A stretch of DNA of 32,000 nucleotides, from the NCBI GenBank assembly GCA_023818895.1, contig JAMWCX010000002.1, positions 330,001-362,000 on the forward strand. The letters run 5' to 3'. Made by a program: the position numbers and the translations under genes. Shown in pieces: positions 1-14,227 of this stretch. Each line of letters begins with the position of its first letter. Within the stretch, counting starts at the first letter, position 1. The notes under the pieces were generated by a model, which was not told where the DNA came from, did no database searches, and saw only the letters and a program-made list of their open reading frames with translations. The DNA is from Candidatus Omnitrophota bacterium (GTDB taxonomy: Bacteria > Omnitrophota > Gorgyraeia > 2-01-FULL-45-10).

Positions 1-3000
1 AAGGAAGTCCGCCTGGAGATCGGCTGACGCCACAAGGGCCTCATGTATATCCGCCATGTGCGAAAGCGCACCGGTAAAATCGCTCACGCCATAACTTCCG
101 CTATTGGCGACTATATAACTTGCCACGCCTGATAAGATAGCGCGGTAATTGTCGCTCTGGACCGAGGCGGTCGTGTCAGGAGTCACGCCATAGACAGTGT
201 TGAAATCGGCCCTCAAACTGGCATCCGCCAGAAGCGCCTGGTGTATGTCCACTATGTATGGCACTCCGTTAAGTATATCAGTGACGGTAATTCCTGGATT
301 AGCGAGAACATAAGCTCCGATGCCGGAAAGAACAGTCCTATAATCTTCACTGGTGACGGTGGCCGTGGTGTCAGCCGTCGTGTTATACGCGATGTTGAAA
401 TCCGCCCTCAGGCCCGGATCGGCCAGAAGCGCGGCATGTATATCCTGCATATAAGGAATGGCACCCAAAATATCATCTATAGTGGTGCCGGCGTTGGCCA
501 GTATGTAACTGGCTATGCCAGAGAGCGCGTAGCGGTAGTTTTCGCCGGTTATATTGGCTGTGGTGTCGGCCGTTACACTATATATAACCTCAAAGTCCAC
601 TCTCAAAGCGGCATCCGCAAGAAGCGCCGCGTGTAGATCGGCCATGATGGGAAGCGCGTCCAGAAGATCGGAGGTCGTAAGGCCATTATCCAGAATATAG
701 GCAGCCATTCCGGCGAGCGCGTAGCGGTAAGATTCTGTTGTAACATTTGCTGTAGTATCAGCGACGACATTATACACAACGGTGAAGTCCGCCTGAAGAT
801 CGGCATCGGCAAGAAGGGCCGCGTGCAGATCCGCCATTACTGGTATCGCATTAAGTATATCGTTAGCAGTCAGCCCCTCGTCGAGAACATAGCTTGCGAT
901 GCCTGAAAGGGCATAGCGATATGCCTCGGTAGTGACGTTTGCGCCTGAGTCGGCTATAGTATTATAGACAGTATTAAAGTCGGCTCTTAAGCCGGCGTCG
1001 GCAACCAGGGCCTGATGGATATCGGCCATGATGGGTATGGCGCTCAGGATATCATTTATTGTCATAGGAGGATTGTCTAAAACATAGCTTGCGATCCCAG
1101 AAAGTGCGTAGCGGTAAGATTCGGTGGTCACGGATGGTGTAGTATCCGCGGTGACGTTATATACGACGTTGAAGTCCGCGCGCAAAGACGCATCCGCAAG
1201 AAGCGCGGCGTGTATATCTGCCATCGGCGTCAGTGCGCCGACAAAGTCGCCTACCGTATAGCCGGCGTTATCGAGGATATAATCAGCGGTGCCGGAAAGC
1301 AGATTCCTATAATTTTCGTTTGTCACAGGATCCTGGTTAGCCGGCGCTATGCCGTAAATAACCTCAAAATCATTCTGTATATCAGCTGACGCGGTGATGG
1401 CGGCGTCGAGGTCTGCCATGATGGGAAGCGCCTGCGTAAACCGCAGGACCGTGTAACCGGGTGTTGTCACGATGTAACGCGCAATACCGGAAAGCGCATT
1501 TGCATAATCAGGGTTATTTACCGGGTCCTGGTCGGCGACCGCTATGCCATATATAGTCTCGAAGTCAGCTTGAAGATCCGGATCCGCTGAAATAGCGGCG
1601 TGCAGATCATCTATAATAGGAAGGCTTGCCAGGAAGTCATTCACGGTCATCGGAGGATTCGCAAGAATGTAATTGGCCACACCCGAAAGTATATTACGAT
1701 AGTCAGCGTTCGTAACCGGGTCCTGGTCGGCGACCGCTATGCCGTAGACAGAGGCAAAATCCTCTCCCACCCCTGTAGGATCTGCGGCAAGCGCCTCGTG
1801 AAGATCGGCCATGAGCTCAAGCGCATCCATGAATATAGCTACGGTATATCCGGCGTTATTCAGGATAAAGCTCGCAATACCAGAAAGGTTAAAGCGGTAG
1901 GCATCATTCGTAATGGGATCCTGGTCGGCCGGCGCAATGCCGTATATTGTCTCGAAATCGGCCTGCAGAAGAGCATCTGCCTGGAGGGCTTCATGAACAT
2001 TTTCCATGACCGGTAACTCAGCGGTAAAATCTGCCACGCTATATGGCGGATTGTCAATAATGTAACTGGCCACACCAGAAAGGATATTGCGGTAGTCAGC
2101 ATTCGTAACCGGGTCTTGGTTGGCAACCTCTATACCGTATATCGTCTCAAAGGCACTCTGAACATTGATATCAGCGGAGATAGCTTCATCGAGATCCGCC
2201 ATTATTGGAAGAGCCGACACAAAATCGGACACCGTATATGTACCAGCGCTTCCCAATATATAACTTGCCACTCCGGAAAGAGCGTTTCTATAATTATCCG
2301 ATGTTACATTTGGCGTGGTATCAGGATCGACGCCGTATATGGCGTTGAAATCCGCTCTCAAAGTAGCGCTGGCGAGAAGCTCGGCATGAATATCCGCGAT
2401 ATAGGGAACGGCGTCAAGGATATCGTTAAAATCGAGCGAATTGGCCAGAGCGTAGCTTGCGATACCTGCCAGGACATTACGGTAACCGGTGCTTGTGACA
2501 TTCGGAGTAGTATCGGCTGTCGTATTATAAACTATATTGAAGTCAGCCCTTAAGGCAGGGTCGGCAAGTAAGGCTGCGTGGATATCCGCCATGATGGGAA
2601 GCGCGTCTAAAAGATCGGTGTATGTCATCGGAGGATTATCCAGCACATAGCTTGCCATTCCGGCTAAAGCGTAGCGATAGGATTCGGTGGTGACGTTAGG
2701 CGTGGTGTCCGCCGTGACGTTATTTATCGTCTCAAAGTCAGCCCTTAAGGCAGGGTCAGCAAGTAAGGCTGCGTGGATATCCGCCATGATGGGAACACTA
2801 TTAAGAAACGCGGCCGCTGTCATAGGCGGATGGCTTGCTATATAACTTGCGATGCCTGAGAGCGTAAAGCGGTAATCGTCGCTTGTCTCAGGGTCAGCTA
2901 CATATGTGACATTGTACATGCTCTCGAAGTCAGCTCTTAAGGCTGCGTTGGACGTCAGGCCTTCATGTAGATCAGCCATCGTGACAAGTTCGACTTTAAA

Positions 3001-3580
3001 GTCCTCTATATCGTATCCTATGGTATTAGACGCGATGTATCCTGCAATACCCTGTATAGTTGAAAGATAGTCAGGGTCGTTCATGTTGGCTTCGAGGACC
3101 TGATCGGCAACAGCTACGCCATAGATTAGCTCAAAATCCGCCCGCAGCGTCGGATACGCAACATCATCAAGCGCGTTGTGAACAGCCATGGCGCCGTTAA
3201 GGCCGGCGATGTATGTTGCAAGATTATAGCCTGTCCCGTTAACTACGCCTGCCAGCCAGCCGCGATATGCGGGGTTATTAACAGGGTTCTGGTTTATAGG
3301 AGCGTAGTTCGAAATAGCCGCGACTATACTTTGAAGCGAATTATCAATTATAGCCTGGTGAAGATCTGCGGATGCACCGAGCTCGTAAATAAAATCATCG
3401 ACAGTATAATAATCGGGCTTCGTATAGTCATCGTGTTCGGATATGTATCCTGCTATTCCGACAAGTATCGACATGTAGTCATTATTACTCAGCACCTGAT
3501 TTGAAACTGCGGTACCGTAAAGAATCTGGAAATCACTCTGAAGGCCATGCGCGATGATCTCTTCGTGTATCTCTATCGCA
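1..3580 (-). repeat. In-frame tandem coding repeat, unit 192-198 nt (64-66 aa), about 18 units in window, continuing past the left edge
   Basis: Recurring unit L(R/Q)ADF..(V/I)Y(N/G)....D..P.VT...YR..LSG(I/V)ASY(V/I)L.N....T..D.L.A.P(I/V)MAD(I/L)HAALLAD. Anchors such as gccatgatggg recur at about 641, 1025, 1417, 2589, 2784. A 60-nt stretch at 2541-2600 recurs at 2736-2795 with one mismatch (offset 195). The 28-nt ccgggtcctggtcggcgaccgctatgcc occurs at 1521-1548 and 1716-1743 (offset 195). Confidence 0.9.
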
Positions 3581-5976
3581 AGGACCGAGCCTGAACCGCC
3601 AGCGAGTATACCGGGCAGCGCAAGATCTCCGGCCGCGGTTATCGTGATATTGGTTATCCTGCCAGAGCCATCTGTAGTGACTGTAATATAGCCGTCCGTA
3701 ACCCATTCATTGCGAAGATTATCGTTGGTAAAAAGCAAGATCGCCGCGTTGACTGCCGCTTCAGCCCCTATTCCGTAACCATTGAACTTACCGACAAGGT
3801 AATCGAGCACGGCAAAGGCGGTCTGACCATAAGTGGTAACGCTGATAGCATCCGCGCCTATAGCGGCATCCCGAAGACCGGTAGCAAACATCTTCTGTAA
3901 ATAGACATAAATTCTGTCCTGGATAGCAAATCCACTTGCCGAATACGTATGGTTATCGATAACGAGGTTCGGCATAAGAGCCTCAAACATGGTACCTTCC
4001 CATGATGGTATATAGTGGAAGGTGTCGCTTCCTATCGTATAGTCGTAAACGCCGTTAGACGGAATCTGGGCCTGCCATGTCCAGTCTTCCGGATAAGCGG
4101 TGACCATCCTGTCCCATAACGCCGCGGGGATGGTGCTGCCTGTCTTACCTATGGCAATAAGAATTGTCGGGCGTATTTCGGTATATATATTTCCATAATA
4201 GGATGTTGTAAGAGTGCTTGTATCCGGATCAGCACCTGTGGCAAGAAGTCCCGCTGTGGTATTATATAAACTGTTAAAATTCATAGCATTGAAAAGCGCG
4301 TCAGCGTTTGTCCTGATAGCGCCTCCATATGCCTGCCGAACGACAAGCAACGCCGAGGCAAGCCAGCCATTATCGACTGTAGATATGAACTTTTCGCTTG
4401 CGGTAGAGGCAGAGGGCGGGTTGGTTGTAAAACTGTAATAATTATGGAAAAGACCGTTCCACTTGTCGAGAGTAGCCAGTGTTGCCAGGCAGTTAGTAAT
4501 ACGAGTTTGGGCGGTAGCACTGTCGATCAGGTTAAGCTCATCCGCCGCTACCACGCTCATTAGATACAGAGCTATGTCTGTTATAGAGGTATAATTGGCA
4601 ACGCTTCCTGCCGCGGTGCGCCTGTCCGGCGGAAGCCAATAGGTGCCCGCGTTAGTCGTGTCAGCGAAATAATTCCATGTGCTCTGCGCGTAACCCAAAA
4701 GCGTCGCTTTTTGAAGATCTGTAAGAGCCGAGGTATCAAGCTGCGCGCCGGTAGGGTCGGTCAGTATACCAGAATAAGCCTTGTTAAGTCTTCCTCTTGA
4801 AATAATAAGTGGGTTACTACCCATGAAATAGTCCTGTATGCATCCATTATTAAGGGCATTTGCAATGGACACGAGGATACATCCCTGCGACAGAGTAAGA
4901 TACACTTGAGCCACGTCATTATTAGTCGCGTTGACGGAATCGAGAAAACCATAAGTGCCGGTCATGCCGGATATGCCGCTTAAGTCGCCAATATTAGCCA
5001 TCGCCTCGGCCGGCGCAACGTCAAGAGCCAGGAAACTCGCATATGGTGTTACAACGCCTGATTCATTCAGGATCCACGCGCCGTGGCTCATACCGAGCGG
5101 CGCGTAATAATCACGATATGTCGAATCATCGGAAGGATCAGTACACGAGGACATTCCCCATACACTCAGGCCCTGCGAAGAGGTATTTATATTGATGACA
5201 CCTTCGGCCACAAGAGCTTCCCTTAGACTCGCATCGCCAAAAAGCTGAAGGGCTATGCGCTCAGCCGCCCACTGATCCAAACTTGCGGCCATCATCGCCT
5301 GTATGAGATTATACATATCGCCGGCTGCGACGTGGCCGTATTCTGTAAGGTTAACGTCCGTTATCACGCTACCGGATAAGGTGGTTGTGATAAAACGGGC
5401 ATCGAGCCATAGCTGGCGAAAAGCGGGATCAGTGAAGATAAAGTCTGCATATGCGTCATCAGTCCCATTATTGGGTATTCCGGCCGCCGCAAGTTCATCG
5501 GCGAATGAGACCATATTCGGTATGGCTATATTGCCGTTTGCGGTTATCGTTATCTGTGTAGGGTCATTTGTGTCATTTGACGGCTGTATAGAGAGGTATC
5601 CGGCGCTCGCCCAGCGTATGCGTTTCGCGTCGTCATAGTATAAGTATTCGCCTATGTAGCTTCCCATTCCTATGGCGCTCAGCTGATTTGCTAGCCTTAC
5701 AAGCATGTCATAGACCGCGACGCGGCCGTATGCGGTAAGGGTCCATGTCAAAGCGCCGTCAGATACTATGAAACCGGCGTTCTGCCAGTTTGTCCTGGCT
5801 CCGGCATCGTTAAAAATCGCCCATGCCCAATAATCGGCAAGATATGTCGGGTCTCCAGCAGGAATACCCGCCGCAATAAGCTCTTGCCTAAAAGACTCTT
5901 GGTCAGCAAGCGCCGCATGGGTTGTAACCATTACAAACAACATCACAAGACACACCAAACCGACTATTTTTTTCAT
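1..5976 (-). CDS. Giant secreted protein, 3' end beyond window (at least 1,992 aa): signal peptide, duplicated small N-terminal modules, (alpha/alpha)6 glycoside-hydrolase-like region, then tandem 64-66-aa repeats
   Basis: Not in the supplied ORF track. Reading plus-strand triplets in register with position 1, none of tta/cta/tca (minus-strand stops) occurs in 1..5976. ATG at 5976-5974, GGAGGG at 5985-5990. N-terminus MKKIVGLVCLVMLFVMVTTHAALADQESF looks like a signal peptide. Motif blocks: PLGMSHGAWILNESGVVTPY (5041-5100); TYGFLDSVN..YLTLSQGCILVSIA (4861-4980); YTSITDIALYLMSVVAADELNLI (4501-4620); TVDNGWLASALLVV (4321-4380); SWEGTMFEALMPNLV (3961-4020). All track ORFs in 241..5638 lie in other frames. 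Confidence 0.85.
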   Translation of the reverse strand, partial: MKKIVGLVCLVMLFVMVTTHAALADQESFRQELIAAGIPAGDPTYLADYWAWAIFNDAGARTNWQNAGFIVSDGALTWTLTAYGRVAVYDMLVRLANQLSAIGMGSYIGEYLYYDDAKRIRWASAGYLSIQPSNDTNDPTQITITANGNIAIPNMVSFADELAAAGIPNNGTDDAYADFIFTDPAFRQLWLDARFITTTLSGSVITDVNLTEYGHVAAGDMYNLIQAMMAASLDQWAAERIALQLFGDASLREALVAEGVININTSSQGLSVWGMSSCTDPSDDSTYRDYYAPLGMSHGAWILNESGVVTPYASFLALDVAPAEAMANIGDLSGISGMTGTYGFLDSVNATNNDVAQVYLTLSQGCILVSIANALNNGCIQDYFMGSNPLIISRGRLNKAYSGILTDPTGAQLDTSALTDLQKATLLGYAQSTWNYFADTTNAGTYWLPPDRRTAAGSVANYTSITDIALYLMSVVAADELNLIDSATAQTRITNCLATLATLDKWNGLFHNYYSFTTNPPSASTASEKFISTVDNGWLASALLVVRQAYGGAIRTNADALFNAMNFNSLYNTTAGLLATGADPDTSTLTTSYYGNIYTEIRPTILIAIGKTGSTIPAALWDRMVTAYPEDWTWQAQIPSNGVYDYTIGSDTFHYIPSWEGTMFEALMPNLVIDNHTYSASGFAIQDRIYVYLQKMFATGLRDAAIGADAISVTTYGQTAFAVLDYLVGKFNGYGIGAEAAVNAAILLFTNDNLRNEWVTDGYITVTTDGSGRITNITITAAGDLALPGILAGGSGSVLAIEIHEEIIAHGLQSDFQILYGTAVSNQVLSNNDYMSILVGIAGYISEHDDYTKPDYYTVDDFIYELGASADLHQAIIDNSLQSIVAAISNYAPINQNPVNNPAYRGWLAGVVNGTGYNLATYIAGLNGAMAVHNALDDVAYPTLRADFELIYGVAVADQVLEANMNDPDYLSTIQGIAGYIASNTIGYDIEDFKVELVTMADLHEGLTSNAALRADFESMYNVTYVADPETSDDYRFTLSGIASYIASHPPMTAAAFLNSVPIMADIHAALLADPALRADFETINNVTADTTPNVTTESYRYALAGMASYVLDNPPMTYTDLLDALPIMADIHAALLADPALRADFNIVYNTTADTTPNVTSTGYRNVLAGIASYALANSLDFNDILDAVPYIADIHAELLASATLRADFNAIYGVDPDTTPNVTSDNYRNALSGVASYILGSAGTYTVSDFVSALPIMADLDEAISADINVQSAFETIYGIEVANQDPVTNADYRNILSGVASYIIDNPPYSVADFTAELPVMENVHEALQADALLQADFETIYGIAPADQDPITNDAYRFNLSGIASFILNNAGYTVAIFMDALELMADLHEALAADPTGVGEDFASVYGIAVADQDPVTNADYRNILSGVANYILANPPMTVNDFLASLPIIDDLHAAISADPDLQADFETIYGIAVADQDPVNNPDYANALSGIARYIVTTPGYTVLRFTQALPIMADLDAAITASADIQNDFEVIYGIAPANQDPVTNENYRNLLSGTADYILDNAGYTVGDFVGALTPMADIHAALLADASLRADFNVVYNVTADTTPSVTTESYRYALSGIASYVLDNPPMTINDILSAIPIMADIHQALVADAGLRADFNTVYNTIADSGANVTTEAYRYALSGIASYVLDEGLTANDILNAIPVMADLHAALLADADLQADFTVVYNVVADTTANVTTESYRYALAGMAAYILDNGLTTSDLLDALPIMADLHAALLADAALRVDFEVIYSVTADTTANITGENYRYALSGIASYILANAGTTIDDILGAIPYMQDIHAALLADPGLRADFNIAYNTTADTTATVTSEDYRTVLSGIGAYVLANPGITVTDILNGVPYIVDIHQALLADASLRADFNTVYGVTPDTTASVQSDNYRAILSGVASYIVANSGSYGVSDFTGALSHMADIHEALVASADLQADFL

Positions 5977-6046
5977 TTTAGCAACCCTCCAAAGTTTATC
6001 CGATTGTTTTGACGCAAGGTAGGAAATTGTTTTCGAAAATATTTTC

Positions 6047-6094
6047 ATAAATTAAAAGCCTGGTCACCTACTTTTCAGCTTCGGTAACCAGGCT
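6047..6094 (-). terminator. Intrinsic terminator-like hairpin inside the leader of the giant gene
   Basis: Minus strand: AGCCTGGTTACC (6094-6083), 14-nt loop, GGTGACCAGGCT (6068-6057). This gives a 12-bp stem with one G-U pair, followed by TTTAATTTAT. It lies about 80 nt upstream of the ATG at 5976 and about 250 nt downstream of the preceding gene's stop. Confidence 0.6.
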
Positions 6095-6164
6095 GTCTAA
6101 AACTATATTAGACCCTTGGCTTTGCCGTGAACCAGAACTCACTTTGCTCGTTAGGTTCACGATC
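6078..6164 (-). promoter_or_regulatory. Candidate c-di-GMP-I (GEMM-I)-like riboswitch aptamer in the 5' leader of the giant gene
   Basis: Minus strand: GAUCGUGAACCUAACGAGCAAAGUGAGUUCUGGUUCACGGCAAAGCCAAGGGUCUAAUAUAGUUUUAGACAGCCUGGUUACCGAAGC. From memory, the Vc2 GEMM-I blocks are GGCAAAC, a 16-nt hairpin, ACGCAAAGCC, a long hairpin, then AGC..GGUUACCGA. Here the blocks are GCAAAG, a 16-nt hairpin GUGAG[UUCUGG]UUCAC, ACGGCAAAGCC (one extra G), a hairpin CCAAGGGUCUAA/UUAGACAGCCUGG, then GGUUACCGAAG. The 3' part (6081-6100) overlaps the terminator 5' arm. No covariance-model search was run. Confidence 0.4.
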
Positions 6165-6251
6165 CTCCATAACCACATCTTTCCATCATTTTAATAGCTA
6201 AGAAGGATGACCCTGCCTCACGACAGGTGTGCCTTTTTCGACCGCATTTTT

Positions 6252-6279
6252 AGTTTACTATAAAAAATTATTTTGTCAA
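6252..6279 (-). promoter_or_regulatory. Sigma70-like promoter for the giant gene leader
   Basis: Minus strand: TTGACA (6279-6274), 16-nt spacer, TAAACT (6257-6252), in an AT-rich intergenic region. Confidence 0.4.
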
Positions 6280-6347: not shown

Positions 6348-7463
6348 TTATTTTTCCAGCCAGATCTCAGGATGTTTATGATAGGAAATAACAAATGCTT
6401 CGACGACTTTTGGATCAAACTGAGTCGAGGATGCCTCCCTTATCCTGTCAAAAGCCGCTTCCTTTGAAAGCCCTTTCTGATAAGGCCTGTCTGTGGTAAG
6501 GGCGTCGAATGTATCGGCGACTGCTATTATCCTCCCTTCAAGGGAGATGGCATTTCCTTTGAGATGATGAGGGTAACCATTCCCGTCAAAGCGCTCATGG
6601 TGTTCCAGCACCCCCCTTATTATCTTATGAGAATCGTCTATCGACTCTATTATCCTTGCGCCTATACCTGGATGCATCTTTATCTGCCTGCGCTCATAAC
6701 CCAAGAGCTTTGCCGGTTTCATAAGAATACTTTCCTTAACGCCTATCTTCCCTATATCGTGCAGTATGCTCGCCAACCTCAGATTCTCAAGGGTCTCCTC
6801 ATCAAGATTGAGTTCCTGACCTATGGCAACAGCATATTTCATGACACGCTCAGAATGGCCGCTCGTGTACGCGTCTTTGGCATCTATAGCCCTGGCAAGC
6901 GATGTCACAGTGCTTATAAAGAGGTTCTTAAGGCGATGGTACAACTTAGCGTTGAGGAGCGCTATGGCTATATTATTTGAAAGCGCCTCCAATAGTTCTT
7001 TATCTTCTTCCGTGAAGAGGTGCCCCGGCCTTTTACGGTTGCTCACTATAAGTATTCCTATAATCTTACCTTCCACCTCGAGAGGGACGGCAAGAAAAGA
7101 GTGTATAGGCAGTTCTATATCAGCAAATGGCAGCTTCTTCCCTTTGAAAAGAAAGTTATCACGTATATCATTAACTATAAGCGGCTCTTTGCTTTTTATG
7201 ACATTCTCGTTTATAATCTCCCAGCTTCCCAGGAGATTTATATTGTCGAGCTCATCCGCGCTAAAACCTTTCGCCTTTGTCAGCATCAGCTTCCTGATGG
7301 TTTCATCCATCAGGAATAGCGAGGCATGGTCCGCGCCAAGCGCTTTTGACGACTGGTCGAGGACAATCTCGCTTACCTTTTCGAGATCAAGGGACGAGCT
7401 TATCTCACGACTTACCTGCAGGAGTATTTTCGCGGCTTCGTATTTGCGTGTGTTTTCCGTCAT
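6348..7463 (-). CDS. GAF domain + HD-GYP domain protein (predicted c-di-GMP phosphodiesterase)
   Basis: C-terminal motifs HSERV, ILHDIGKIGV, HHERFDGNGYP and VADTFDALTTDRPY define HD-GYP. The N-terminal ~170 aa is GAF-like. The ATG overlaps the upstream stop (ATGA at 7460-7463). Confidence 0.88.
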   Translation of the reverse strand: MTENTRKYEAAKILLQVSREISSSLDLEKVSEIVLDQSSKALGADHASLFLMDETIRKLMLTKAKGFSADELDNINLLGSWEIINENVIKSKEPLIVNDIRDNFLFKGKKLPFADIELPIHSFLAVPLEVEGKIIGILIVSNRKRPGHLFTEEDKELLEALSNNIAIALLNAKLYHRLKNLFISTVTSLARAIDAKDAYTSGHSERVMKYAVAIGQELNLDEETLENLRLASILHDIGKIGVKESILMKPAKLLGYERRQIKMHPGIGARIIESIDDSHKIIRGVLEHHERFDGNGYPHHLKGNAISLEGRIIAVADTFDALTTDRPYQKGLSKEAAFDRIREASSTQFDPKVVEAFVISYHKHPEIWLEK

Positions 7464-9373
7464 AAAACCTTTACCACTATTATCGTCATGTCATCGTGCT
7501 GTTGGGACTTTGGCTCGAACCGGCGCACATCGCGTTCTATCGTCTCCAGGAGCTTTCTCGCGGAAAGACCTCTGTTCTTAAGAGCAACTGCCTGTAGGCG
7601 CTCTTTACCGTACATATCGGAGTGACGATTCATCGCCTCGGTGATGCCATCTGTATAGTATATGAAGATATCGCCCTTTTCAAAGGCGACGCTGCTCGCG
7701 GAATACTCGCCTTCCATAAGGCCTAGCGGTGATCCTTCCTCGACATCGAGGAAACGGCTGCTTCCATCCCCCGCGATGTAAAGAACAGGAAGGTGTCCTC
7801 CATTACCATATACCATAGTTTTGGCTCTCACGTCAAATATAGAATAGTAGACTGTAACAAACAGGTTCGAAGTTGATTCTCTTATAAGTTTTGAATTGAG
7901 GCTCGACAATACTTCCTGCGGATTTTTCCCGGGAAGCGCAAAAGACCGAAAATCACCGACGACCATTGCCATGAAAAGGGCTGCGGGAACGCCTTTGCCG
8001 GAAACGTCGCCTATCATTATGCCGAATCGATCCTCGCCGAAAGACGTAAAGTCATATAGATCCCCTCCGACCTGGCGGGCCGTAAACATGGCCGCCGCTA
8101 CATCCATTCCCTCAATTGAAGGCATTACCTTAGGCAAGAAACTTTCTTGTATTTTCTTGGCTATCTGAAGCTCGCTCTCCATTAGAAGTCTTTTCTTCCA
8201 CTCCCTCACGTACTTGTATAGGGTAAGCGCTATGTGAAGAATCACCCCTACTACCAGCGGATAGATAAGGTCTATCCATAAGCCTGTCAGATTGAAAAGC
8301 AATATGCCGCTCGTGATAAAAATAGTCATTATGCCAACTAGCATGAAAAAACCTTTAAGAGGTCTTGTCTTAAGGACAAGGACCGACATGAGCGAAGATA
8401 GCACAATGAGTATCATAAGGTTCGTGCCACGTGATGCCCTCGCTATGAAATTTCTTTTTACAATGGAATTGAAGACATCGGCGTGCATGCCCATGGCGGG
8501 ATAAAGTGCGTCAAATGGATTAGGATGCAGATCAACCGTCCCCACAGCGGTCAGGCCGATTATGCAAACCTTGCCCCTTAACTTGCCCAAGTCGATATTT
8601 GGCACCTCCCCTGTCACTTTGGCTAGATAGGATTGCAATACATCCACAAACGAATAGTGGCGGTATGAACGGCCCCATGGAGCGGAGAAATTCACTATTA
8701 TATTGGAGTGTTCGTCAAGCGGAATCTTCACGCCACCAAGATCCACGTAACTTCCTAGCACAAACTTGACATCCTTCTGCGATATGCCCAGATGATCGCA
8801 GGCGAAAAGAAGCGACAGATACGGTTGAAGAAGATACCCCTCGTACTTAATATAAGCCGGCACGCGACGGAATTTTCCGTCTACATCGGGCACGACATTG
8901 ATATGGCCAACCCCCTTAGATACGCTGTTTAAAACCTCAAGGTTTCTGGCGGCTATGCCAGATGCGTAAGGCACCTTGCGTCTGCCGGGCTCGATATCAA
9001 ATACTACCGGGAAATAAACGTTGCCGGCCTTCTTTACGGCATCAACGAACTCCGCGTCGCTCTTCATCGGCTCGCTGAAGAAAATATCGAATACTATCGC
9101 TTTAGCCCCGGCCTCGGATAGCGCTTTTACAAGCAGCGCATGATAGCTCCTGTCAAATGGGAAGCGGCCTATCTTTTCGACGGTATCGTCGCTTACCTCG
9201 ATCATAACAACTTTGTCAGTGGTTGGTATCTGCGGGCGCGCTCTAAATCTGAGATCTAGCGTTTCGAGTTCATAGCTGTCGAGGATGTGGAAGTAGGAGC
9301 CGGCCATGATGGCCAGGCACCCAACCAGACCTGCCAACGCGACAAGTATCTTGTTAAGGGCTTTTATCTTCAT
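7460..9373 (-). CDS. CHASE2 sensor domain + PP2C/SpoIIE-type serine phosphatase (RsbU-like)
   Basis: N-terminal TM segment, then a periplasmic region with the CHASE2 signature IGRFPFDRSYHALLVKALSEAGAKAIVFDIFFSEP, then three TM helices. The cytoplasmic SpoIIE/PP2C part carries IAKKIQESFLP, GGDLYDF, GDVSGKGVPAALFMA and TDGITEA. The start codon directly abuts the upstream gene's stop (TAG-ATG at 9376-9371). Confidence 0.88.
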   Translation of the reverse strand: MKIKALNKILVALAGLVGCLAIMAGSYFHILDSYELETLDLRFRARPQIPTTDKVVMIEVSDDTVEKIGRFPFDRSYHALLVKALSEAGAKAIVFDIFFSEPMKSDAEFVDAVKKAGNVYFPVVFDIEPGRRKVPYASGIAARNLEVLNSVSKGVGHINVVPDVDGKFRRVPAYIKYEGYLLQPYLSLLFACDHLGISQKDVKFVLGSYVDLGGVKIPLDEHSNIIVNFSAPWGRSYRHYSFVDVLQSYLAKVTGEVPNIDLGKLRGKVCIIGLTAVGTVDLHPNPFDALYPAMGMHADVFNSIVKRNFIARASRGTNLMILIVLSSLMSVLVLKTRPLKGFFMLVGIMTIFITSGILLFNLTGLWIDLIYPLVVGVILHIALTLYKYVREWKKRLLMESELQIAKKIQESFLPKVMPSIEGMDVAAAMFTARQVGGDLYDFTSFGEDRFGIMIGDVSGKGVPAALFMAMVVGDFRSFALPGKNPQEVLSSLNSKLIRESTSNLFVTVYYSIFDVRAKTMVYGNGGHLPVLYIAGDGSSRFLDVEEGSPLGLMEGEYSASSVAFEKGDIFIYYTDGITEAMNRHSDMYGKERLQAVALKNRGLSARKLLETIERDVRRFEPKSQQHDDMTIIVVKVL

Positions 9374-10432
9374 CTAAAAAAAGTAGCTGAGGCCGCCGGA
9401 ATACATAGTGTCAACGTACCTTTCTAAAGGTTCGTTGGTATGGTTTTCGGAATGTGAATAATTCACGAAGGCGGAAAGATTATCTGTCATGTCGTATATA
9501 AGCGAACCTGTGACGATATAAAGGTTGTCCCTTTGCAGCGCTTCACTGTCGCTCACCTGGCGCTCATAATAGTTACGGCGCTGATAATAAAAACCGGCGG
9601 TGCCAAAAAGCCTCTTTGAAAGAATCGCGGTCAAGGCGCACCCTGTCCTATTGGCCCAGTAATCGTAGTAATCCATGTATTGGTAGTTCGATTCATTGAC
9701 GTAGTAGTCGTTAAGAACACGCAGCTTGACTTTCTTGCCTATGTATATGCCCAGCTCATACCTGCAGGTATTTCTGAGATCGGCCCTGAGTTCAGAGCTC
9801 AGCGTATAATTACTTAAGCGTACCTTTCTGTCGAAGTAGCTTCGATATTCGAGGCGATACATCGCCCGTTGATATAGCCATTTTGTTACCGTGTGCTTTA
9901 AGGATACGACAAAGGAATTGCCTAAGTAATTTCCTTCCCTGTTATGAGGATACCACATGGACTCGAAAACATAGCCCGCGCTAAAGTCCAAATCCTTGGC
10001 GATGTTATGGTCTAAATACACATCGGCTACGCCGTCAAATATGTTGACGTCTGTTACACGAAAATAGTTAACGTTTAGCGCGTTCACACCAAACCTGACA
10101 TCGGTCTTGCCAAGGCTTTCTGCAACAAGCGGATACTTGAAATGGAGATCGAACATCTCCTGTGTATAATTATCTGCTTTGTGAGTGGAGTCCAGAAGGG
10201 GGTTGGAATCTACTCCTTGGGTAACACTTGTGGTTATCTCCACTTTAAGAAGCTCTTTGGAAGGTTTTTTGGCCGGCGGGGAAACCGGCACTTTGGGAGC
10301 AGCGTATAAGTATTTTTTTATGTCCTGGTCTTCTACGGTCTTGACATCGGCACGAGAATGAATAGCTGTAAAAGTTGTAAAGAAAATCACTAAAAGCGTT
10401 GTACAAAATATCTTGCAGGATCCTTCCTCCAT
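9374..10432 (-). CDS. Predicted outer-membrane beta-barrel protein, family not recognised
   Basis: Hydrophobic N-terminal signal-like segment. Y/N/G-rich alternating pattern throughout. C-terminus ...YSGGLSYFF ends in an aromatic residue, typical of OMP beta-barrels. Confidence 0.6.
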   Translation of the reverse strand: MEEGSCKIFCTTLLVIFFTTFTAIHSRADVKTVEDQDIKKYLYAAPKVPVSPPAKKPSKELLKVEITTSVTQGVDSNPLLDSTHKADNYTQEMFDLHFKYPLVAESLGKTDVRFGVNALNVNYFRVTDVNIFDGVADVYLDHNIAKDLDFSAGYVFESMWYPHNREGNYLGNSFVVSLKHTVTKWLYQRAMYRLEYRSYFDRKVRLSNYTLSSELRADLRNTCRYELGIYIGKKVKLRVLNDYYVNESNYQYMDYYDYWANRTGCALTAILSKRLFGTAGFYYQRRNYYERQVSDSEALQRDNLYIVTGSLIYDMTDNLSAFVNYSHSENHTNEPLERYVDTMYSGGLSYFF

Positions 10433-10479
10433 CCTCTTTTGCCTTTTATACCCTTCTTAAAAACTTTTTCGAGATAAAA

Positions 10480-11514
10480 TCATTCTCCTTTATTAATTGT
10501 ACCGCCTGAAGTATCACCTGAGATGCCGCTTGCGTCTGAAACCGATGTGGTTTTCGATTCTATCGGCTCTCTCGCCTCTTCTTTCGCGGCTATCTGCGAT
10601 ATATCACGGGTCTCCTGTATATCCTGCTTCTTGGCTTCAAGCCTTTCGATCTGCGTCTCTTCTTTCGCTATGCGGTCCAACCTTGAATACGACCTATCTA
10701 TCGTGGATTCCGCTTGTTCTATAATAGATTGTGTCTTCTCGATGGTCCTTCCCGCTCTTTCCTCTATAGCGCCAGCGGTCTTTTCCGCTCTTTCTTCAGC
10801 CGCGCTTTCAGTCGGGGTTTCAATTCTTTTTTCTGTCGCCTTTTCCGGAGTCGAAGTGGCGGCTTCTTTCGCTATTTCCGGCGAGCGGCCTATAACCTCT
10901 TGCCTGAAACCGTTCCATCTGTCGATATCAGCGCGCGAAATCTGTTCGAGTCTCTCCGGCCTTTCGAACTTGTCAACCACAGCGCGGAATCCTTCGCTTA
11001 CTGTAAGCTCTCCTTCCATTACGCTGCCATCCCTATTGATGCCCTTGACATAAATAGCGTTCTCGTAAGAACTAAATATAGCCGTTTCTCCATCAGTCTT
11101 GCTGCCCCACCCTGTACCGCGAGCGCCGCTTATTCCGGCAGGCGTTCTTATCTCGAAGCTCGAGCCTTTAGGGATATTCCTCATCAAGGCAAGCACTTCT
11201 CCGTTCAGAAGTTCAATACTGCATGGCGTCTTCCCATGCACTATAACCACGTCAGAATTCTCCGCTATGCCAATGACGTTAGTCTTATCGGCCAGAAACA
11301 CTATATCAACGGCCTCATTCGCGGCTGTCCTTATCCTGTCCCCGTTCGAAACAGCCATCGCTGGCGCGCAGCTTATCCAGCTGCCTGAATCTCTTTTCAT
11401 TATTTTGGGGCTACCTCTTACGGACATGATTTCAGGCGAGGCGTCTTGCGCGAACGTAAGCGTGTAGGACACGAAGGTCAACACCGCTGTTATAAAAATT
11501 ATCTTAAGTCGCAT
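10480..11514 (-). CDS. Secreted FecR-domain protein with E/K/R/T-rich low-complexity C-terminal tail
   Basis: Signal peptide MRLKIIFITAVLTFVSYTLTFAQD. FecR-like core (..W..C.....VSNGDRIRTAANEAVDIVF...ELLNGEVLAL.....FEIRTPAGISGARGTGW). C-terminal ~140 aa is charged and probably coiled or disordered (EKRIETPTESAAEERAEKTAGAIEERAGRTIEKTQ...). Confidence 0.75.
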   Translation of the reverse strand: MRLKIIFITAVLTFVSYTLTFAQDASPEIMSVRGSPKIMKRDSGSWISCAPAMAVSNGDRIRTAANEAVDIVFLADKTNVIGIAENSDVVIVHGKTPCSIELLNGEVLALMRNIPKGSSFEIRTPAGISGARGTGWGSKTDGETAIFSSYENAIYVKGINRDGSVMEGELTVSEGFRAVVDKFERPERLEQISRADIDRWNGFRQEVIGRSPEIAKEAATSTPEKATEKRIETPTESAAEERAEKTAGAIEERAGRTIEKTQSIIEQAESTIDRSYSRLDRIAKEETQIERLEAKKQDIQETRDISQIAAKEEAREPIESKTTSVSDASGISGDTSGGTINKGE

Positions 11515-11565
11515 AATCTCTCCTTTTTTAGCCTACCTAAAGTGTTCCTAATTTTCCACCATTAC

Positions 11566-12189
11566 TTAATCTTTTCCCTTTATCAAAAGCTTCCAGGGAT
11601 GCGCTTTAAGGTCCTGACTGAAATCCTTGAAATTAATAGCGGTCTGCTCTATATTCATCATTATGCTGTCCAGGCGCGGCCTGTTATCTGTAACCGCTCC
11701 GTTGATATTTTCGGCGAGGTTCTTTATCTGGCCAAGCGTTTTATCCAGGGCATCCGCTATAGCATCGGCCTTCTTCCAGAATTTTCTGACCTCGACTGGG
11801 TCCTCGCTTGCCACCGTACCACCATTTTTAATAAACGGTTTATCCGCAGACCCAGGCGTAAGCCCAACATAAGCGTCGCCTATCATGCCAGAGGTGGCTA
11901 TGAACGCTATCGCGTCCTCATGGACTTTGAAGGCCGGTTTTACAGCAAGCTCCAGCATTATCTTTGTTTCGGGTTCGTACTTGAAACCTATCTTGGTGAC
12001 ACGGCCAACCTCTATGCCGGCTAACTTCACGATGGCATCCTCCTTGATTCCGTCGGCGTGATTGAAATAGGTATATATCTTGTAAGGGGCGCCGGTAGTG
12101 CCGGTGGTCTTAATATAAAAAATCATGGTTGCAAGTATCGCGGCAACGACTACTATGCCGGTCTTGACCTCGTTAGTAAGGATCTTCAT
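11566..12189 (-). CDS. mlaD: MCE/MlaD-family substrate-binding protein of an Mla-like ABC transporter
   Basis: N-terminal TM anchor followed by an MCE domain (YKIYTYFNHADGIKEDAIVKLAGIEVGRVTKI). Sits directly downstream of the mlaF/mlaE homologues. Confidence 0.85.
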   Translation of the reverse strand: MKILTNEVKTGIVVVAAILATMIFYIKTTGTTGAPYKIYTYFNHADGIKEDAIVKLAGIEVGRVTKIGFKYEPETKIMLELAVKPAFKVHEDAIAFIATSGMIGDAYVGLTPGSADKPFIKNGGTVASEDPVEVRKFWKKADAIADALDKTLGQIKNLAENINGAVTDNRPRLDSIMMNIEQTAINFKDFSQDLKAHPWKLLIKGKD

Positions 12190-12236
12190 GCGTTATCTCC
12201 TTTCCCTCACTGAATTATTTTTATCAAAACACAAAT

Positions 12237-13049: not shown

Positions 13050-13050
13050 A

Positions 13051-13893: not shown

Positions 13894-14206
13894 CCTGCTC
13901 GTCGGCCATTATTTCGAATAGCTTCTCCAACTTGGTTATCTCGAAAAGGCTCTTTATTTTGGAAGACAGGTTCGTGAGCCTAAGGCGGCCGCCGTAAGAA
14001 CGCATATTCTTGAGTATCTCCACGAGCGTCGCAAGCCCTGATGAATCAACATAAGTCACTTTGGAAAGATTAACAACTATCTTAGGCGTCTTGGATGATA
14101 TCAGCTTATCAAACACCTTCTTTATAGACGGGCTCGAATTTATATCGATCTCGCCCTCCACGTAGCATACCGTTAATCCGTTTTTGTTCTCGATCTTCAC
14201 CGCCAT
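13871..14206 (-). CDS. STAS-domain protein (anti-sigma-factor antagonist type, SpoIIAA/RsbV-like)
   Basis: 111 aa. Carries the conserved phospho-acceptor context VTYVDSSGLATLV. AAGGAG RBS upstream of the ATG at 14206. Confidence 0.85.
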   Translation of the reverse strand: MAVKIENKNGLTVCYVEGEIDINSSPSIKKVFDKLISSKTPKIVVNLSKVTYVDSSGLATLVEILKNMRSYGGRLRLTNLSSKIKSLFEITKLEKLFEIMADEQDAISTFA

Positions 14207-14227
14207 AGCTATGTCTCCTTTTCCCCT

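What the first reader, a model, noticed from the sequence alone, without database searches (positions are those of the whole stretch)
1..5976. The largest gene in the window is invisible in the supplied ORF track
A minus-strand frame in register with position 1 has no stop codon across 5,976 nt; I checked every in-frame triplet. It starts at an ATG (5976) with a GGAGGG RBS and a clear signal peptide. It is missing from the track presumably because its stop lies left of the window. The short ORFs the track does report here (6 plus-strand, 4 minus-strand) are shadows in other frames. At 1,992 aa or more, secreted and highly repetitive, it looks like a surface, adhesin or matrix protein. Its full length cannot be known from this window.
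Basis: seen in the sequence. Interest (0 to 1): 0.7.

Follow-up and report, generated by a model that had tools for sequence, protein, structure and literature searches.

The report
c-di-GMP-gated giant secreted stalk protein
The "invisible" open frame is the first two-thirds of a real 2,947-residue secreted protein of an uncultured Omnitrophota bacterium: a rearranged sugar-cleaving-type head on a long helical stalk, apparently made only when the biofilm signal c-di-GMP binds an RNA switch just upstream.

Summary
The minus-strand frame 5976..1 has no stop in 1,992 codons (chance about 1e-40). It starts at an ATG with a GGAGGG ribosome-binding site and a Sec-type signal peptide, and it is missed only because it runs off the window.

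The full protein is on record: 2,947 aa, "DUF3131 domain-containing protein", Candidatus Omnitrophica MAG.

Architecture, in order:
- signal peptide
- small "FTD-W" modules
- an (α/α)6 domain of the β-1,2-glucanase clan (GH-S) that is circularly permuted relative to all 119 single-domain relatives tested
- 24 copies of a rare 65-aa three-helix repeat (AlphaFold pLDDT 94, no PDB neighbour, 33 clusters among 1.84 billion)
- RHS/YD-like units
- about 8.5 propeller-like blades
- a conserved C-terminal tail

Its P3 strand is also the 5′ arm of a −23 kcal/mol terminator (6094..6057). This predicts an ON switch, as in Bacillus thuringiensis Bc2-cap.

The riboswitch, promoter, terminator and an adjacent HD-GYP phosphodiesterase gene are conserved at orthologous loci down to 37% protein identity.

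Function (adhesin or matrix glycan-binding or -cutting stalk protein) is inferred, not shown.

The parts
1..5976 (-). Coding sequence for aa 1-1992 of a 2,947-aa protein. The stop codon lies about 2.9 kb left of the window.
   Evidence: No stop in 1,992 codons. 100% identical to the first 1,992 aa of P0001.
5905..5976 (-). Sec-type signal peptide, aa 1-24 (MKK / hydrophobic core / ALA|DQ). No lipobox.
   Evidence: Read from the sequence. The same n-h-c/AxA layout occurs in P0002, P0003 and the L003 protein. No SignalP run was available.
5314..5829 (-). Three copies of a ~47-aa 'FTD...W' module (aa 50-91, 108-155, 176-221). No Pfam match.
   Evidence: Iterated HMM on P0001. The same module is amplified about 25 times as the stalk of the L003 ortholog.
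4807..5181 (-). Permuted barrel, first piece (aa 266-390). It corresponds to the C-terminal helices of canonical GH-S/PF10091 domains.
   Evidence: Pfam PF10091 profile positions 106-219. BLASTP to P0043 aa 318-438, E=2e-26. PDB 8wy1 chain 452-556 and 5gzh 332-422.
3850..4701 (-). Permuted barrel, second piece (aa 426-709). It corresponds to the N-terminal and middle helices. It contains D535 (STVDNGW), E600 (YTEIR) and F664-E665 (GTMFEALMP).
   Evidence: Pfam DUF3131 positions 2-123. BLASTP to P0043 aa 40-326, E=5e-55. 8wy1 chain 19-411. Family-invariant residues are retained.
3613..3747 (-). Fourth FTD-W module (aa 744-788).
1..3573 (-). 65-aa three-helix repeats, aa 802-1992. There are 18 complete copies plus part of a 19th in the window, and 24 copies (to aa 2344) in the full protein.
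   Evidence: Iterated HMM. AlphaFold2 model of aa 1065-1389 has pLDDT 94.1 and pTM 0.87. No PDB structural neighbour. Only 33 clusters in 1.84 billion.
5985..5990 (-). Ribosome-binding site GGAGGG.
6047..6094 (-). Intrinsic-terminator-like hairpin: a 12-bp stem (6094-6083 with 6068-6057) followed by UUUAAUUUAU. Its 5' arm is the 3' strand of aptamer helix P3.
   Evidence: Free energy -23.4 kcal/mol, z = -6.6. 100% of pairs are kept in 4 leaders with 1 compensatory and 4 one-sided changes. It shares alignment columns 32-40 with P3.
6080..6240 (-). c-di-GMP-I (GEMM-I) aptamer. The 5' half is GGCACA plus a GNRA hairpin (6233-6208). Two inserted hairpins follow (6208-6162 and 6161-6126). The 3' half is GCAAAGCC plus P3 (6125-6080).
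   Evidence: Rfam RF01051 scores 40.6 bits (gathering score 35) at 6158..6080. Orthologous leaders match with a 42-60 nt insertion in P2. Leader alignment. The GNRA hairpin covaries: 3 of 6 pairs change on both sides, and 6 of 500 shuffles reach the observed score.
6252..6279 (-). Sigma-70-like promoter, TTGACA-16-TAAACT.
   Evidence: The -35 TTGACA is invariant in all five aligned leaders.
6348..7463 (-). GAF + HD-GYP protein (HDIGK ... HHERFDGNGYP), a putative c-di-GMP phosphodiesterase. Conserved neighbour.
   Evidence: Pfam HD_5, E=4e-39. Motifs read from the sequence. The same gene lies upstream in L001, L002 and L003.
7460..9373 (-). CHASE2 sensor + PP2C (SpoIIE) phosphatase. Conserved neighbour.

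Best explanation
Shown: window 1-5976 (minus strand) is the 5' two-thirds of a genuine 8.8-kb gene of an uncultured Omnitrophota bacterium. The gene encodes a 2,947-aa Sec-exported modular protein.

Shown: the modules, in order, are a signal peptide, three small FTD-W modules, an (α/α)6 barrel of the β-1,2-glucanase clan (GH-S), a fourth FTD-W module, 24 tandem three-helix repeats, two RHS/YD-like units, about 8.5 propeller-type blades and a conserved 45-aa C-terminal tail. The last ~120 residues of the barrel have been moved to the front (circular permutation). The barrel keeps the clan's general-acid Glu (E600, the E-x-R motif), the base-candidate Asp (D535) and the Phe (F664).

Inferred mechanism: the gene has its own promoter and a 5' leader containing a c-di-GMP-I riboswitch. 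Without ligand, the strand AGCCUGGUUACC pairs downstream to form a strong terminator, and transcription stops before the start codon. With c-di-GMP bound, that strand is held in aptamer helix P3, the terminator cannot form, and the gene is transcribed (an ON switch).

Inferred function: the product is a long surface- or matrix-exposed stalk. It presents a glycan-binding or glycan-cutting head (a β-1,2-glucan-like substrate) and a propeller. It serves attachment or matrix remodelling in the high-c-di-GMP (sessile or attached) state.

Inferred regulation: the adjacent GAF-HD-GYP phosphodiesterase would lower c-di-GMP and so shut the gene off.
For: The gene is real and its full length is known.

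Orthologs with a conserved head exist at 37-59% identity (P0002, P0003, L001, L002, L003).

GH-S clan membership:
- Pfam PF10091 plus DUF3131.
- PDB sequence hits: 8wy1 at 3e-29, Cgs at 1e-19, EeSGL1 at 8e-11.
- Foldseek top hits are β-1,2-glucanases, using an AlphaFold model with pTM 0.77.

Circular permutation: two BLASTP segments lie in swapped order against P0043. All 119 of 119 single-domain relatives that match both pieces have the canonical order.

Catalytic residues: E600 aligns with TiCGS E1356, and D535 aligns with the EeSGL1 base-candidate Asp (residue roles from PMC12102758 and PMC10834661). The giant protein retains 87 of 122 family-conserved columns.

Stalk. The same repeat occurs with RHS and FG-GAP modules in other proteins. 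The C-terminal blades resemble SBBP/HAF extracellular repeats.

Riboswitch:
- Rfam hits above the gathering score in the window, L001, L081 and L003. L002 is below threshold.
- Conserved leader and -35 box.
- The GNRA hairpin covaries.
- P3 and the terminator are each 100% paired in 4 leaders and mutually exclusive.
- The terminator is -23.4 kcal/mol against -11 for P3.

Precedent: the Bc2 class-I ON switch upstream of the adhesin Cap (PMC4933901).

The HD-GYP neighbour is conserved.
Against: No experiment supports this. Ligand binding, switch direction, localisation and enzymatic activity are all inferred.

Riboswitch and switch direction:
- The Rfam score is only 5.6 bits above the gathering threshold.
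- In the window the conserved 5' half deviates from consensus (GGCACA, GUCA).
- Rfam's own best alignment uses a different, non-conserved 5' half.
- Only four distinct leaders exist, so for P3 and the terminator the shuffle controls are not significant (117-124 of 500).
- The U-tract is short (4 U, then AAUUUAU), and the simple terminator scan did not call it.
- Class-I riboswitches in C. difficile are mostly OFF switches (PMC6200980).

Enzyme-like domain:
- All four giant orthologs share substitutions at positions invariant in the canonical family (R->T/M, G->E/D/N, E->N, N->Q, H->Y/V). Substrate or activity may therefore differ or be lost.
- The AlphaFold model has about 30% low-confidence residues. 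I could not measure barrel closure because no coordinates were available.

Localisation: no recognised cell-surface anchor or outer-membrane secretion signal was found, so a periplasmic location is not excluded.
Confidence: 0.6

Rival explanations
1. Enzyme first. The protein is mainly an extracellular, stalk-mounted glycanase. It degrades β-1,2-glucans or related glycans for nutrition or to attack a host or prey envelope. Adhesion is secondary.
For: The general-acid Glu, base-candidate Asp and clan Phe are retained, along with 87 of 122 family-conserved columns. The closest solved relatives are active β-1,2-glucan enzymes. Omnitrophota are proposed to be host-dependent or predatory, with giant proteins implicated in cell-wall degradation (bioRxiv 10.1101/2023.11.21.568195 and PMC10066038).
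Against: The giant subfamily shares substitutions at otherwise invariant positions. The GH189 nucleophile position holds Ser. The canonical ~450-aa relatives have not themselves been characterised, to my knowledge (the DUF3131 literature search found nothing relevant). Control by c-di-GMP usually marks attachment or matrix functions.
Confidence: 0.3
2. The protein stays in the periplasm as a glucan-processing or scaffolding protein (for example acting on osmoregulated or cyclic β-1,2-glucans). It is not a surface adhesin.
For: Only a Sec signal peptide was found. There is no recognisable outer-membrane secretion or anchoring domain. The closest solved relatives by sequence include the cyclization domain of cyclic β-1,2-glucan synthases. 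From general knowledge, not tested here, their products are periplasmic or secreted glucans.
Against: A rod of 24 repeats plus RHS-like and propeller modules is typical of extracellular proteins. Relatives of the C-terminal region carry SBBP/HAF extracellular repeats. A conserved C-terminal tail suggests a sorting or attachment step.
Confidence: 0.1
3. The leader RNA is not a functional c-di-GMP ON switch. It may be an OFF switch, may respond to another dinucleotide such as 3'3'-cGAMP, or may be a degenerate relic.
For: The Rfam score is marginal. The window's distal half deviates from consensus. Rfam's proximal alignment puts an A at the G20 position. From my own knowledge, not checked in a paper here, this is the substitution seen in cGAMP-selective GEMM-I variants. 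Class I riboswitches are mostly OFF in C. difficile.
Against: The aptamer core, GNRA hairpin, P3 and terminator are conserved with compensatory changes across loci whose proteins are only 37% identical. The proximal A20 variant is not conserved in any relative. The shared strand makes P3 and the terminator mutually exclusive, which gives ON logic.
Confidence: 0.2
4. The long frame is an artefact: a mis-assembly of collapsed repeats or a pseudogene.
For: Repetitive genes in metagenome-assembled genomes are prone to mis-assembly. The repeat count differs from the orthologs (24 against 9 and 8).
Against: The repeat units are at most 71% identical in DNA and the longest exact repeat is 37 nt. TRF finds nothing. 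There is no stop in 2,947 codons. Orthologs share the head, repeats, blades and tail.
Confidence: 0.02

Closest known systems
Bc2 c-di-GMP-I riboswitch upstream of cap (collagen adhesion protein), Bacillus thuringiensis (PMC4933901)
   Same: A class-I aptamer in the 5' UTR of a large secreted adhesin-type gene. An intrinsic terminator overlaps the aptamer. Ligand binding gives anti-termination, i.e. an ON switch.
   Different: The phylum differs (Omnitrophota, a diderm, against Bacillota). The aptamer here carries a 42-100 nt two-hairpin insertion inside P2. The regulated protein is unrelated: a permuted GH-S head on a helical stalk, not a Cna-type collagen-binding protein. Nothing has been tested experimentally here.
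Clan GH-S β-1,2-glucan enzymes: GH144 (CpSGL), GH162, GH189 (Cgs cyclization domain), GH192-194 (PMC12102758, PMC10834661)
   Same: The (α/α)6 barrel. The general-acid Glu in an E-x-R context. An Asp at the base-candidate position (VDNG). A Phe before the conserved E/Q-A-L-M/L-P motif.
   Different: The topology is circularly permuted, with the last ~120 residues placed first. No permuted member is mentioned in the clan paper. The GH189 nucleophile position holds Ser. The domain is embedded in a 2,947-aa stalk protein. The substrate is untested.
~450-aa 'glucoamylase family / DUF3131' proteins of Bacillota and ~698-aa versions in Omnitrophica (P0040-P0159)
   Same: The closest sequence relatives of the head (33-40% identity, E down to 2e-69) and the same conserved motifs.
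   Different: They have the canonical segment order and are single-domain. The giant subfamily carries shared substitutions at family-invariant sites.
Fibrillar or repeat-stalk adhesins under c-di-GMP control (for example LapA-type large adhesins; the V. cholerae large-adhesin circuit, PMC6890996, seen only as a title in the hit list and not read)
   Same: A functional head projected on a long tandem-repeat stalk, with production or retention tied to high c-di-GMP.
   Different: From my own knowledge, not checked in a paper here, those adhesins use β-sandwich (Ig-like) repeats, type I secretion and post-translational LapD/LapG control. This protein has an α-helical three-helix repeat with no PDB neighbour, a Sec signal peptide and RNA-level control.
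Omnitrophota giant proteins: Archaeovorins and Dockerin-type, at least 30,000 aa (bioRxiv 10.1101/2023.11.21.568195)
   Same: The same phylum. Very large, repeat-rich, predicted extracellular proteins proposed to mediate attachment to, or degradation of, other cells.
   Different: This protein is ten times smaller. It has a different domain set: no HEAT, dockerin or TSP3 repeats. That paper does not mention glucoamylase/DUF3131 domains or riboswitches.

Membership tests
c-di-GMP-I riboswitch (Rfam RF01051, GEMM-I) | Covariance-model score at or above the curated gathering score | tested here: met
   Window 40.6 bits against 35. L001 and L081 score 40.5 and L003 scores 41.4. L002 scores only 30 bits, and against the GGC variant model.
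c-di-GMP-I riboswitch (Rfam RF01051, GEMM-I) | Conserved core nucleotides: GGCAAA (with G at the G20 position), GCAAAGCC, and UUACCGA (the C92 position) | tested here: met
   Leader alignment A2. The 3' half is invariant. The 5' half is GGCAAA in the relatives and GGCACA in the window. Nucleotide roles (G20, A47, C92) are from my own knowledge of the Vc2 structures.
c-di-GMP-I riboswitch (Rfam RF01051, GEMM-I) | P2 hairpin capped by a GNRA tetraloop, and a P3 hairpin | tested here: met
   The P2 hairpin has GUGA/GCAA loops. 3 of 6 pairs change on both sides, and 96% of cells are paired. P3 is 100% paired with 1 compensatory change. Atypical feature: two extra hairpins are inserted on the 3' side of P2's internal loop.
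c-di-GMP-I riboswitch (Rfam RF01051, GEMM-I) | Selective binding of c-di-GMP | not testable with these tools
   Needs in-line probing, ITC or a termination assay.
Transcriptional ON riboswitch (terminator / anti-terminator) | An intrinsic terminator whose stem shares a strand with a ligand-stabilised aptamer helix | tested here: met
   The 12-bp stem is -23.4 kcal/mol. It is kept in 4 of 4 leaders. It shares 9 nt with P3. Weakness: the U-tract is only UUUU followed by AAUUUAU, and the simple scan did not call it.
Clan GH-S (SGL clan) glycoside hydrolases | (α/α)6-barrel fold | tested here: met
   Foldseek top hits are 8xuj, 8wy1 and 5gzh, with probability 1.00 and E from 3e-7 to 2e-5. The TM-score is only 0.37-0.44, as expected for a sequential aligner on a permuted chain and a model with mean pLDDT 70.
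Clan GH-S (SGL clan) glycoside hydrolases | Conserved general-acid Glu (XcSGL E239 / CpSGL E211 / TiCGS E1356) | tested here: met
   E600 in YTEIR aligns with the TiCGS ...SEAR Glu. It is invariant in 76 aligned family members.
Clan GH-S (SGL clan) glycoside hydrolases | Conserved Phe near the nucleophilic water (XcSGL F286) | tested here: inconclusive
   F664 (GTMFEALMP) aligns with the F of TiCGS GTMFEYFMP and of EeSGL1 GAYFQALLP. Equivalence to XcSGL F286 is inferred from spacing and was not checked by superposition.
Clan GH-S (SGL clan) glycoside hydrolases | Conserved Tyr stacking at subsite -3 (XcSGL Y367) | tested here: inconclusive
   The candidate is Y342 (TYGFLDSV), in a family-invariant Y-G-x-x-D motif. 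I had no residue-level alignment to XcSGL.
Clan GH-S (SGL clan) glycoside hydrolases | Canonical N-to-C order of the barrel helices | tested here: not met
   Segments are in swapped order against P0043, against 8wy1 and against 119 of 119 relatives. This makes it a circularly permuted variant.
GH189 (cyclic β-1,2-glucan synthase cyclization domain, retaining transglycosylase) | Nucleophile Glu (TiCGS E1442) | tested here: not met
   The Cgs motif PWGISE aligns with VWGMSS, so S277 occupies the position. The assignment of E1442 to that Glu is inferred from residue spacing relative to E1356. The domain is therefore not filed under GH189.
HD-GYP c-di-GMP phosphodiesterase (neighbour gene 6348-7463) | HD...HHExxDGxGYP signature within an HD_5 domain | tested here: met
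   HDIGK and HHERFDGNGYP are present. PF13487 matches at E=4e-39. Activity was not tested.
Fibrillar (stalk-type) surface adhesin | Signal peptide, a tandem-repeat stalk, a binding head and a cell-surface anchor | tested here: inconclusive
   The signal peptide, stalk and head are present. No known anchor was found, only a conserved C-terminal tail of unknown role. Localisation cannot be tested here.

The most novel reading that the evidence does not exclude
This could be a previously undescribed kind of c-di-GMP-gated attack or attachment organelle of ultra-small Omnitrophota.

In this reading, a circularly permuted member of the β-1,2-glucanase clan (in effect a new GH family or topology) sits on a rod built from a new three-helix repeat fold. 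The cell deploys it to bind and cut β-1,2-glucans (periplasmic or capsular glucans) of a host or prey bacterium.

It would be switched on by a structurally expanded GEMM-I riboswitch whose P2 is a multi-helix junction.
Probability: 0.12. Interest if true: 0.8.

Novelty: new variant of a known kind. Interest (0 to 1): 0.55.

Why it matters
Four points:

1. Method. Edge-truncated ORFs can hide the most interesting gene in a window. Here it was a 2,947-aa protein.

2. Regulation. The locus gives a clean, conserved example of RNA-level c-di-GMP control of a giant secreted protein in Omnitrophota, an uncultured phylum whose lifestyle (host-dependent or predatory) is debated. It therefore offers a testable link between second-messenger state and cell-cell or surface attachment.

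3. Enzymology. The head is, as far as I could find, the first circularly permuted member of the recently defined β-1,2-glucanase clan. The permutation point lies next to the position of the GH189 nucleophile. This is useful for understanding how this fold evolves and which residues are essential.

4. Structure. The 65-aa three-helix repeat is confidently predicted, has no solved structural neighbour and is confined to about 33 protein clusters. It is a candidate new stalk module.

If the enzyme proves inactive and the riboswitch proves conventional, the finding reduces to a well-annotated large adhesin gene.

Tried and rejected
- Exact-sequence contig look-up of P0001 found nothing on record. 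I could not extend the contig leftwards or see the downstream genes. The source genome is also not among the species representatives.
- Tandem Repeats Finder on the DNA found nothing. The repeats are visible only at the protein level.
- Pfam and NCBIfam on the repeats, blades and tail gave only sub-threshold noise: DUF6642, Phage_TAC_5, AmcB and a tape-measure model. I rejected these.
- Foldseek of the helical-repeat model against the PDB gave no meaningful hit (best E 0.16, with TALE and prenyl-synthase noise).
- A plain MAFFT alignment with full-length relatives (A3) left the permuted piece unaligned. I replaced it with a split-row alignment (A4) for structure prediction.
- An artificial alignment of hairpin B with the loops replaced (A8) mis-aligned, and I discarded it. 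Covariation of hairpin B is argued only from reading the sequences.
- The Rfam coordinates 6158..6080 as the whole aptamer were rejected in favour of about 6240..6080, because the proximal 5' half is not conserved and the distal one covaries.
- GH189 membership was rejected because the nucleophile position holds Ser.
- Collapsed-repeat mis-assembly was rejected.
- Literature searches for DUF3131 and for Omnitrophota plus c-di-GMP found nothing relevant to this protein.
Full report
OBSERVATION

Translating window 1-5976 on the minus strand gives 1,992 codons without a stop. The product starts MKKIVGLVCLVMLFVMVTTHAALA|DQ. The ATG is at 5976-5974, and GGAGGG lies at 5990-5985.

Given the local base composition, the chance of no stop in 1,992 codons is about 1e-40. 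The other five frames contain 39-141 stops each.

The ORF lister omits ORFs that run off the source, which explains why the gene was invisible.

The repeats are not an assembly artefact:
- Tandem Repeats Finder finds nothing.
- The longest exact direct repeat is 37 nt.
- The repeat units are at most 71% identical in DNA.

FULL LENGTH AND ORIGIN

A homology search returned P0001. It is 2,947 aa, 100% identical over the whole 1,992 aa, and named by NCBI [quoted passage not shown]. It sits on a 442,820-bp contig. So 955 residues lie left of the window.

An exact-sequence contig look-up failed, and the source genome is not a species representative. I therefore could not read the DNA beyond the window.

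True orthologs are few:
- P0002 (1,733 aa) and P0003 (1,381 aa).
- The loci L001/L081 and L002/L082 from Omnitrophota.
- L003, from a MAG labelled Planctomycetia, with a 2,293-aa ORF and 37% identity.
- The fragments P0202 and P0209.

ARCHITECTURE

- Signal peptide: aa 1-24.
- Three ~47-aa "FTD...W" modules (aa 50-221) and a fourth at aa 744-788.
- An enzyme-like domain: aa 266-709.
- 24 tandem ~65-aa repeats: aa 802-2344. 18 complete copies plus part of a 19th lie in the window. P0002 has 9 and P0003 has 8.
- Two 74-aa RHS/YD-like units: aa 2389-2548.
- About 8.5 copies of a 40-aa unit, "DFGxxGxYKYsnnsWTKLSgwNAdsF": aa 2559-2901.
- A ~45-aa tail (LDVQN..YGxTAEGGFTxTSALAGGP). It recurs at the extreme C-terminus of eight family members.

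Relatives of the C-terminal part carry SBBP β-propeller or HAF extracellular repeats.

In L003 the same head is followed by about 25 copies of the FTD-W module instead of the helical repeat. The head is therefore the constant part and the stalk is interchangeable.

THE HEAD

Pfam places PF10091 (profile positions 106-219) at aa 270-386, and DUF3131 (positions 2-123) at aa 429-551.

Against the PDB the best sequence match is the cyclization domain of Thermoanaerobacter italicus cyclic β-1,2-glucan synthase (8wy1, GH189; E=3e-29). Next come Agrobacterium Cgs, the GH192 β-1,2-glucanase EeSGL1 (8e-11) and GH144 enzymes.

The matched segments are in swapped order. Query 428-676 matches chain 19-411, but query 286-385 matches chain 452-556. 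Two further tests agree:
- BLASTP against a ~450-aa Bacillota relative (P0043) gives giant 426-707 against 40-326 (5e-55), and giant 266-390 against 318-438 (2e-26).
- All 119 of 119 single-domain relatives that match both pieces have the canonical order.

The head is therefore a circular permutant: the last ~120 residues of the barrel now come first.

An AlphaFold2 model was built on an alignment in which each relative was supplied as two rows. It has pTM 0.77 and mean pLDDT 70, with both pieces at high confidence. Foldseek ranks β-1,2-glucanases first: 8xuj, 8wy1 and 5gzh. I had no coordinates, so closure of the barrel is inferred from the pTM and was not measured.

CATALYTIC RESIDUES

The clan paper (PMC12102758) defines clan GH-S by three residues: a general-acid Glu, a Phe and a Tyr. 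It adds an acidic base candidate. GH189 has an additional Glu nucleophile, E1442 (PMC10834661).

In the giant protein:
- E600 (YTEIR) aligns with TiCGS E1356 (SEAR).
- D535 (STVDNGW) aligns with the EeSGL1 base-candidate Asp.
- F664-E665 (GTMFEALMP) aligns with TiCGS F-E1400.
- The Cgs motif PWGISE reads VWGMSS here. A GH189-type nucleophile is therefore absent. The identification of that Glu as E1442 rests on residue spacing.

After re-permuting the giants in silico, P0001 keeps 87 of 122 columns that are at least 90% conserved in the canonical family. All four giants share substitutions at otherwise invariant positions. This looks like a specialised subfamily rather than decay. Activity and substrate remain open.

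The clan paper does not mention permuted members.

THE STALK

An AlphaFold2 model of five repeats has pLDDT 94.1 and pTM 0.87. The alignment was made of 5-repeat windows from P0001-P0003. Each repeat has three helices, and one long helix bridges neighbouring repeats.

Foldseek finds no PDB neighbour: best E 0.16, TM at most 0.2.

An exhaustive HMMER scan of 1.84 billion cluster representatives finds only 33 proteins at E of 1e-3 or better. Some combine the repeat with the same permuted head, with RHS repeats or with FG-GAP propellers.

THE LEADER

Rfam finds one family above threshold in the whole window: c-di-GMP-I at 6158..6080 on the minus strand, at 40.6 bits against a gathering score of 35. 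The same family is found directly upstream of the orthologous genes in L001, L081 and L003. It is below threshold in L002.

Aligning the leaders shows these conserved elements:
- an invariant -35 TTGACA with a -10 box (window 6279..6252)
- a "GGCAAA + stem + GNRA + stem" element (window 6233-6208)
- two further hairpins (6208-6162 and 6161-6126)
- the nearly invariant GCAAAGCCAAGGGUCU...AGACAGCCUGGUUACCGAA
- the 3' arm of a hairpin

In L001 and L003, Rfam itself joins the distal GGCAAA to the 3' half across a 42-60 nt insertion in P2. In the window it picked a nearer, non-conserved GAGCAAA.

The distal GNRA hairpin covaries. 3 of 6 pairs change on both sides, 96% of cells are paired, and 6 of 500 shuffles reach the observed score. 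I therefore place the aptamer at about 6240..6080. It is a GEMM-I whose P2 internal loop carries two extra hairpins.

SWITCH LOGIC

Aptamer helix P3 and a 12-bp downstream hairpin (6094-6083 with 6068-6057, followed by UUUAAUUUAU) share nine nucleotides.

Each helix is 100% paired in the four distinct leaders, and each has one compensatory change. The terminator's free 3' arm varies at five positions without losing a pair. Four sequences are too few for the shuffle control to be significant, but the slid-partner controls fall to 56% or less.

The terminator hairpin is -23.4 kcal/mol (z = -6.6) against -11 for P3. The default state is therefore termination, and ligand-stabilised P3 would allow read-through.

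This is the logic shown experimentally for the class-I riboswitch Bc2 upstream of the adhesin Cap in B. thuringiensis (PMC4933901). Class-I switches in C. difficile are mostly OFF (PMC6200980), so the direction here rests on the platform and not on the class.

NEIGHBOURHOOD

All genes in the window are on the minus strand.

Immediately upstream is a GAF + HD-GYP protein (HDIGK, HHERFDGNGYP), preceded by a CHASE2-PP2C phosphatase. The same pair lies upstream of the riboswitch in L001, L002 and L003. In L003 it is separated by an inserted AbiE toxin-antitoxin pair.

A c-di-GMP phosphodiesterase next to a c-di-GMP-activated gene suggests local negative control. This is an inference.

The rest of the window is housekeeping.

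INTERPRETATION

Shown:
- a real, edge-truncated gene and its full length
- the modular architecture
- clan-level homology and the permutation of the head
- a conserved GEMM-I-type leader with mutually exclusive P3 and terminator helices
- conserved synteny with the HD-GYP gene

Inferred:
- c-di-GMP binding and the ON direction
- export beyond the inner membrane
- a role as an attachment or matrix stalk protein whose head binds or cuts a β-1,2-glucan-like polymer

Rivals are an enzyme-first role in attacking host or prey glycans, a periplasmic role, and a non-canonical or inactive riboswitch. Mis-assembly is effectively excluded.

NOVELTY AND SCORE

The gene itself is deposited and auto-annotated. 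A riboswitch-controlled adhesin is a known kind of system.

Three things appear to be new variants:
- the permuted topology of a GH-S domain
- the rare, confidently folded three-helix stalk repeat with no structural neighbour
- the expanded P2 of the aptamer, in a phylum where c-di-GMP riboswitch control has not been described in the papers I could search

I rate it a new variant of a known kind, with interest 0.55.

Noticed in passing
window 7460-14692 (minus strand): A partner-switching-like gene set: CHASE2-PP2C phosphatase (7460-9373), a STAS anti-anti-sigma-like protein (13871-14206) and an RsbW-like HATPase_c_2 kinase (14228-14692). These are interleaved with an MlaE/ABC/MlaD-type transporter (11566-13893) and a FecR-domain protein (10480-11514). 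The 352-aa ORF at 9374-10432 has no Pfam match. A 351-aa ORF in the corresponding position of L002 (5391-6446) also has no Pfam match; I did not compare the two sequences.
   Followed up: partly
window 6126-6158 (minus strand): Rfam's own alignment in the window uses a proximal 'GAGCAAA' as the 5' half of the aptamer. This puts an A at the G20 position. From my own knowledge, that is the substitution seen in cGAMP-selective GEMM-I variants. The proximal half lies in the loop of hairpin B and is not conserved in any relative. It could be an alternative or competing fold.
   Followed up: partly
L002 9720-9890: The orthologous leader in L002 carries an extra insertion of about 95 nt with a second 'GGGCGAA' element. 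Its best Rfam match is the c-di-GMP-I-GGC variant, at a sub-threshold 30 bits.
   Followed up: no
L003 7093-9422: AbiEii/AbiEi-type toxin-antitoxin genes and a nucleotidyltransferase gene are inserted between the conserved HD-GYP gene and the riboswitch-controlled giant gene.
   Followed up: no
L003 9998-16810: The 37%-identical ortholog keeps the permuted head. Its stalk is built from about 25 copies of the FTD-W module, with only one helical repeat. It ends in FG-GAP-like units interrupted by an assembly gap (a run of X). Stalk modules are evidently swapped within this family.
   Followed up: partly
L017 18038-18310: A Planctomycetales MAG contig encoding a distant relative of the head also carries a c-di-GMP-I-GGC riboswitch (64.8 bits). 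It is followed about 70 nt later by a second GEMM-like sequence (GGTCGCAAAGTCACGG...). This may be a tandem arrangement. The downstream gene is cut by the contig end.
   Followed up: no
P0001 aa 2902-2947 (outside the window); also P0002, P0003, P0160-P0162, P0164, P0195: A conserved extreme C-terminal tail, (E/P)xSQRLDVQNx(5)YGxTAEGGFTxTSALAGGP, follows either propeller blades or helical repeats. It has no hydrophobic segment and no known sorting motif. It may be a secretion, processing or attachment tag.
   Followed up: partly
P0186 (2,287 aa, from the representative library): The rare helical repeat also occurs at the C-terminus of a protein with HEAT repeats and a SecA DEAD-like domain. 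This is an odd combination and may be a gene fusion or a mis-call.
   Followed up: no
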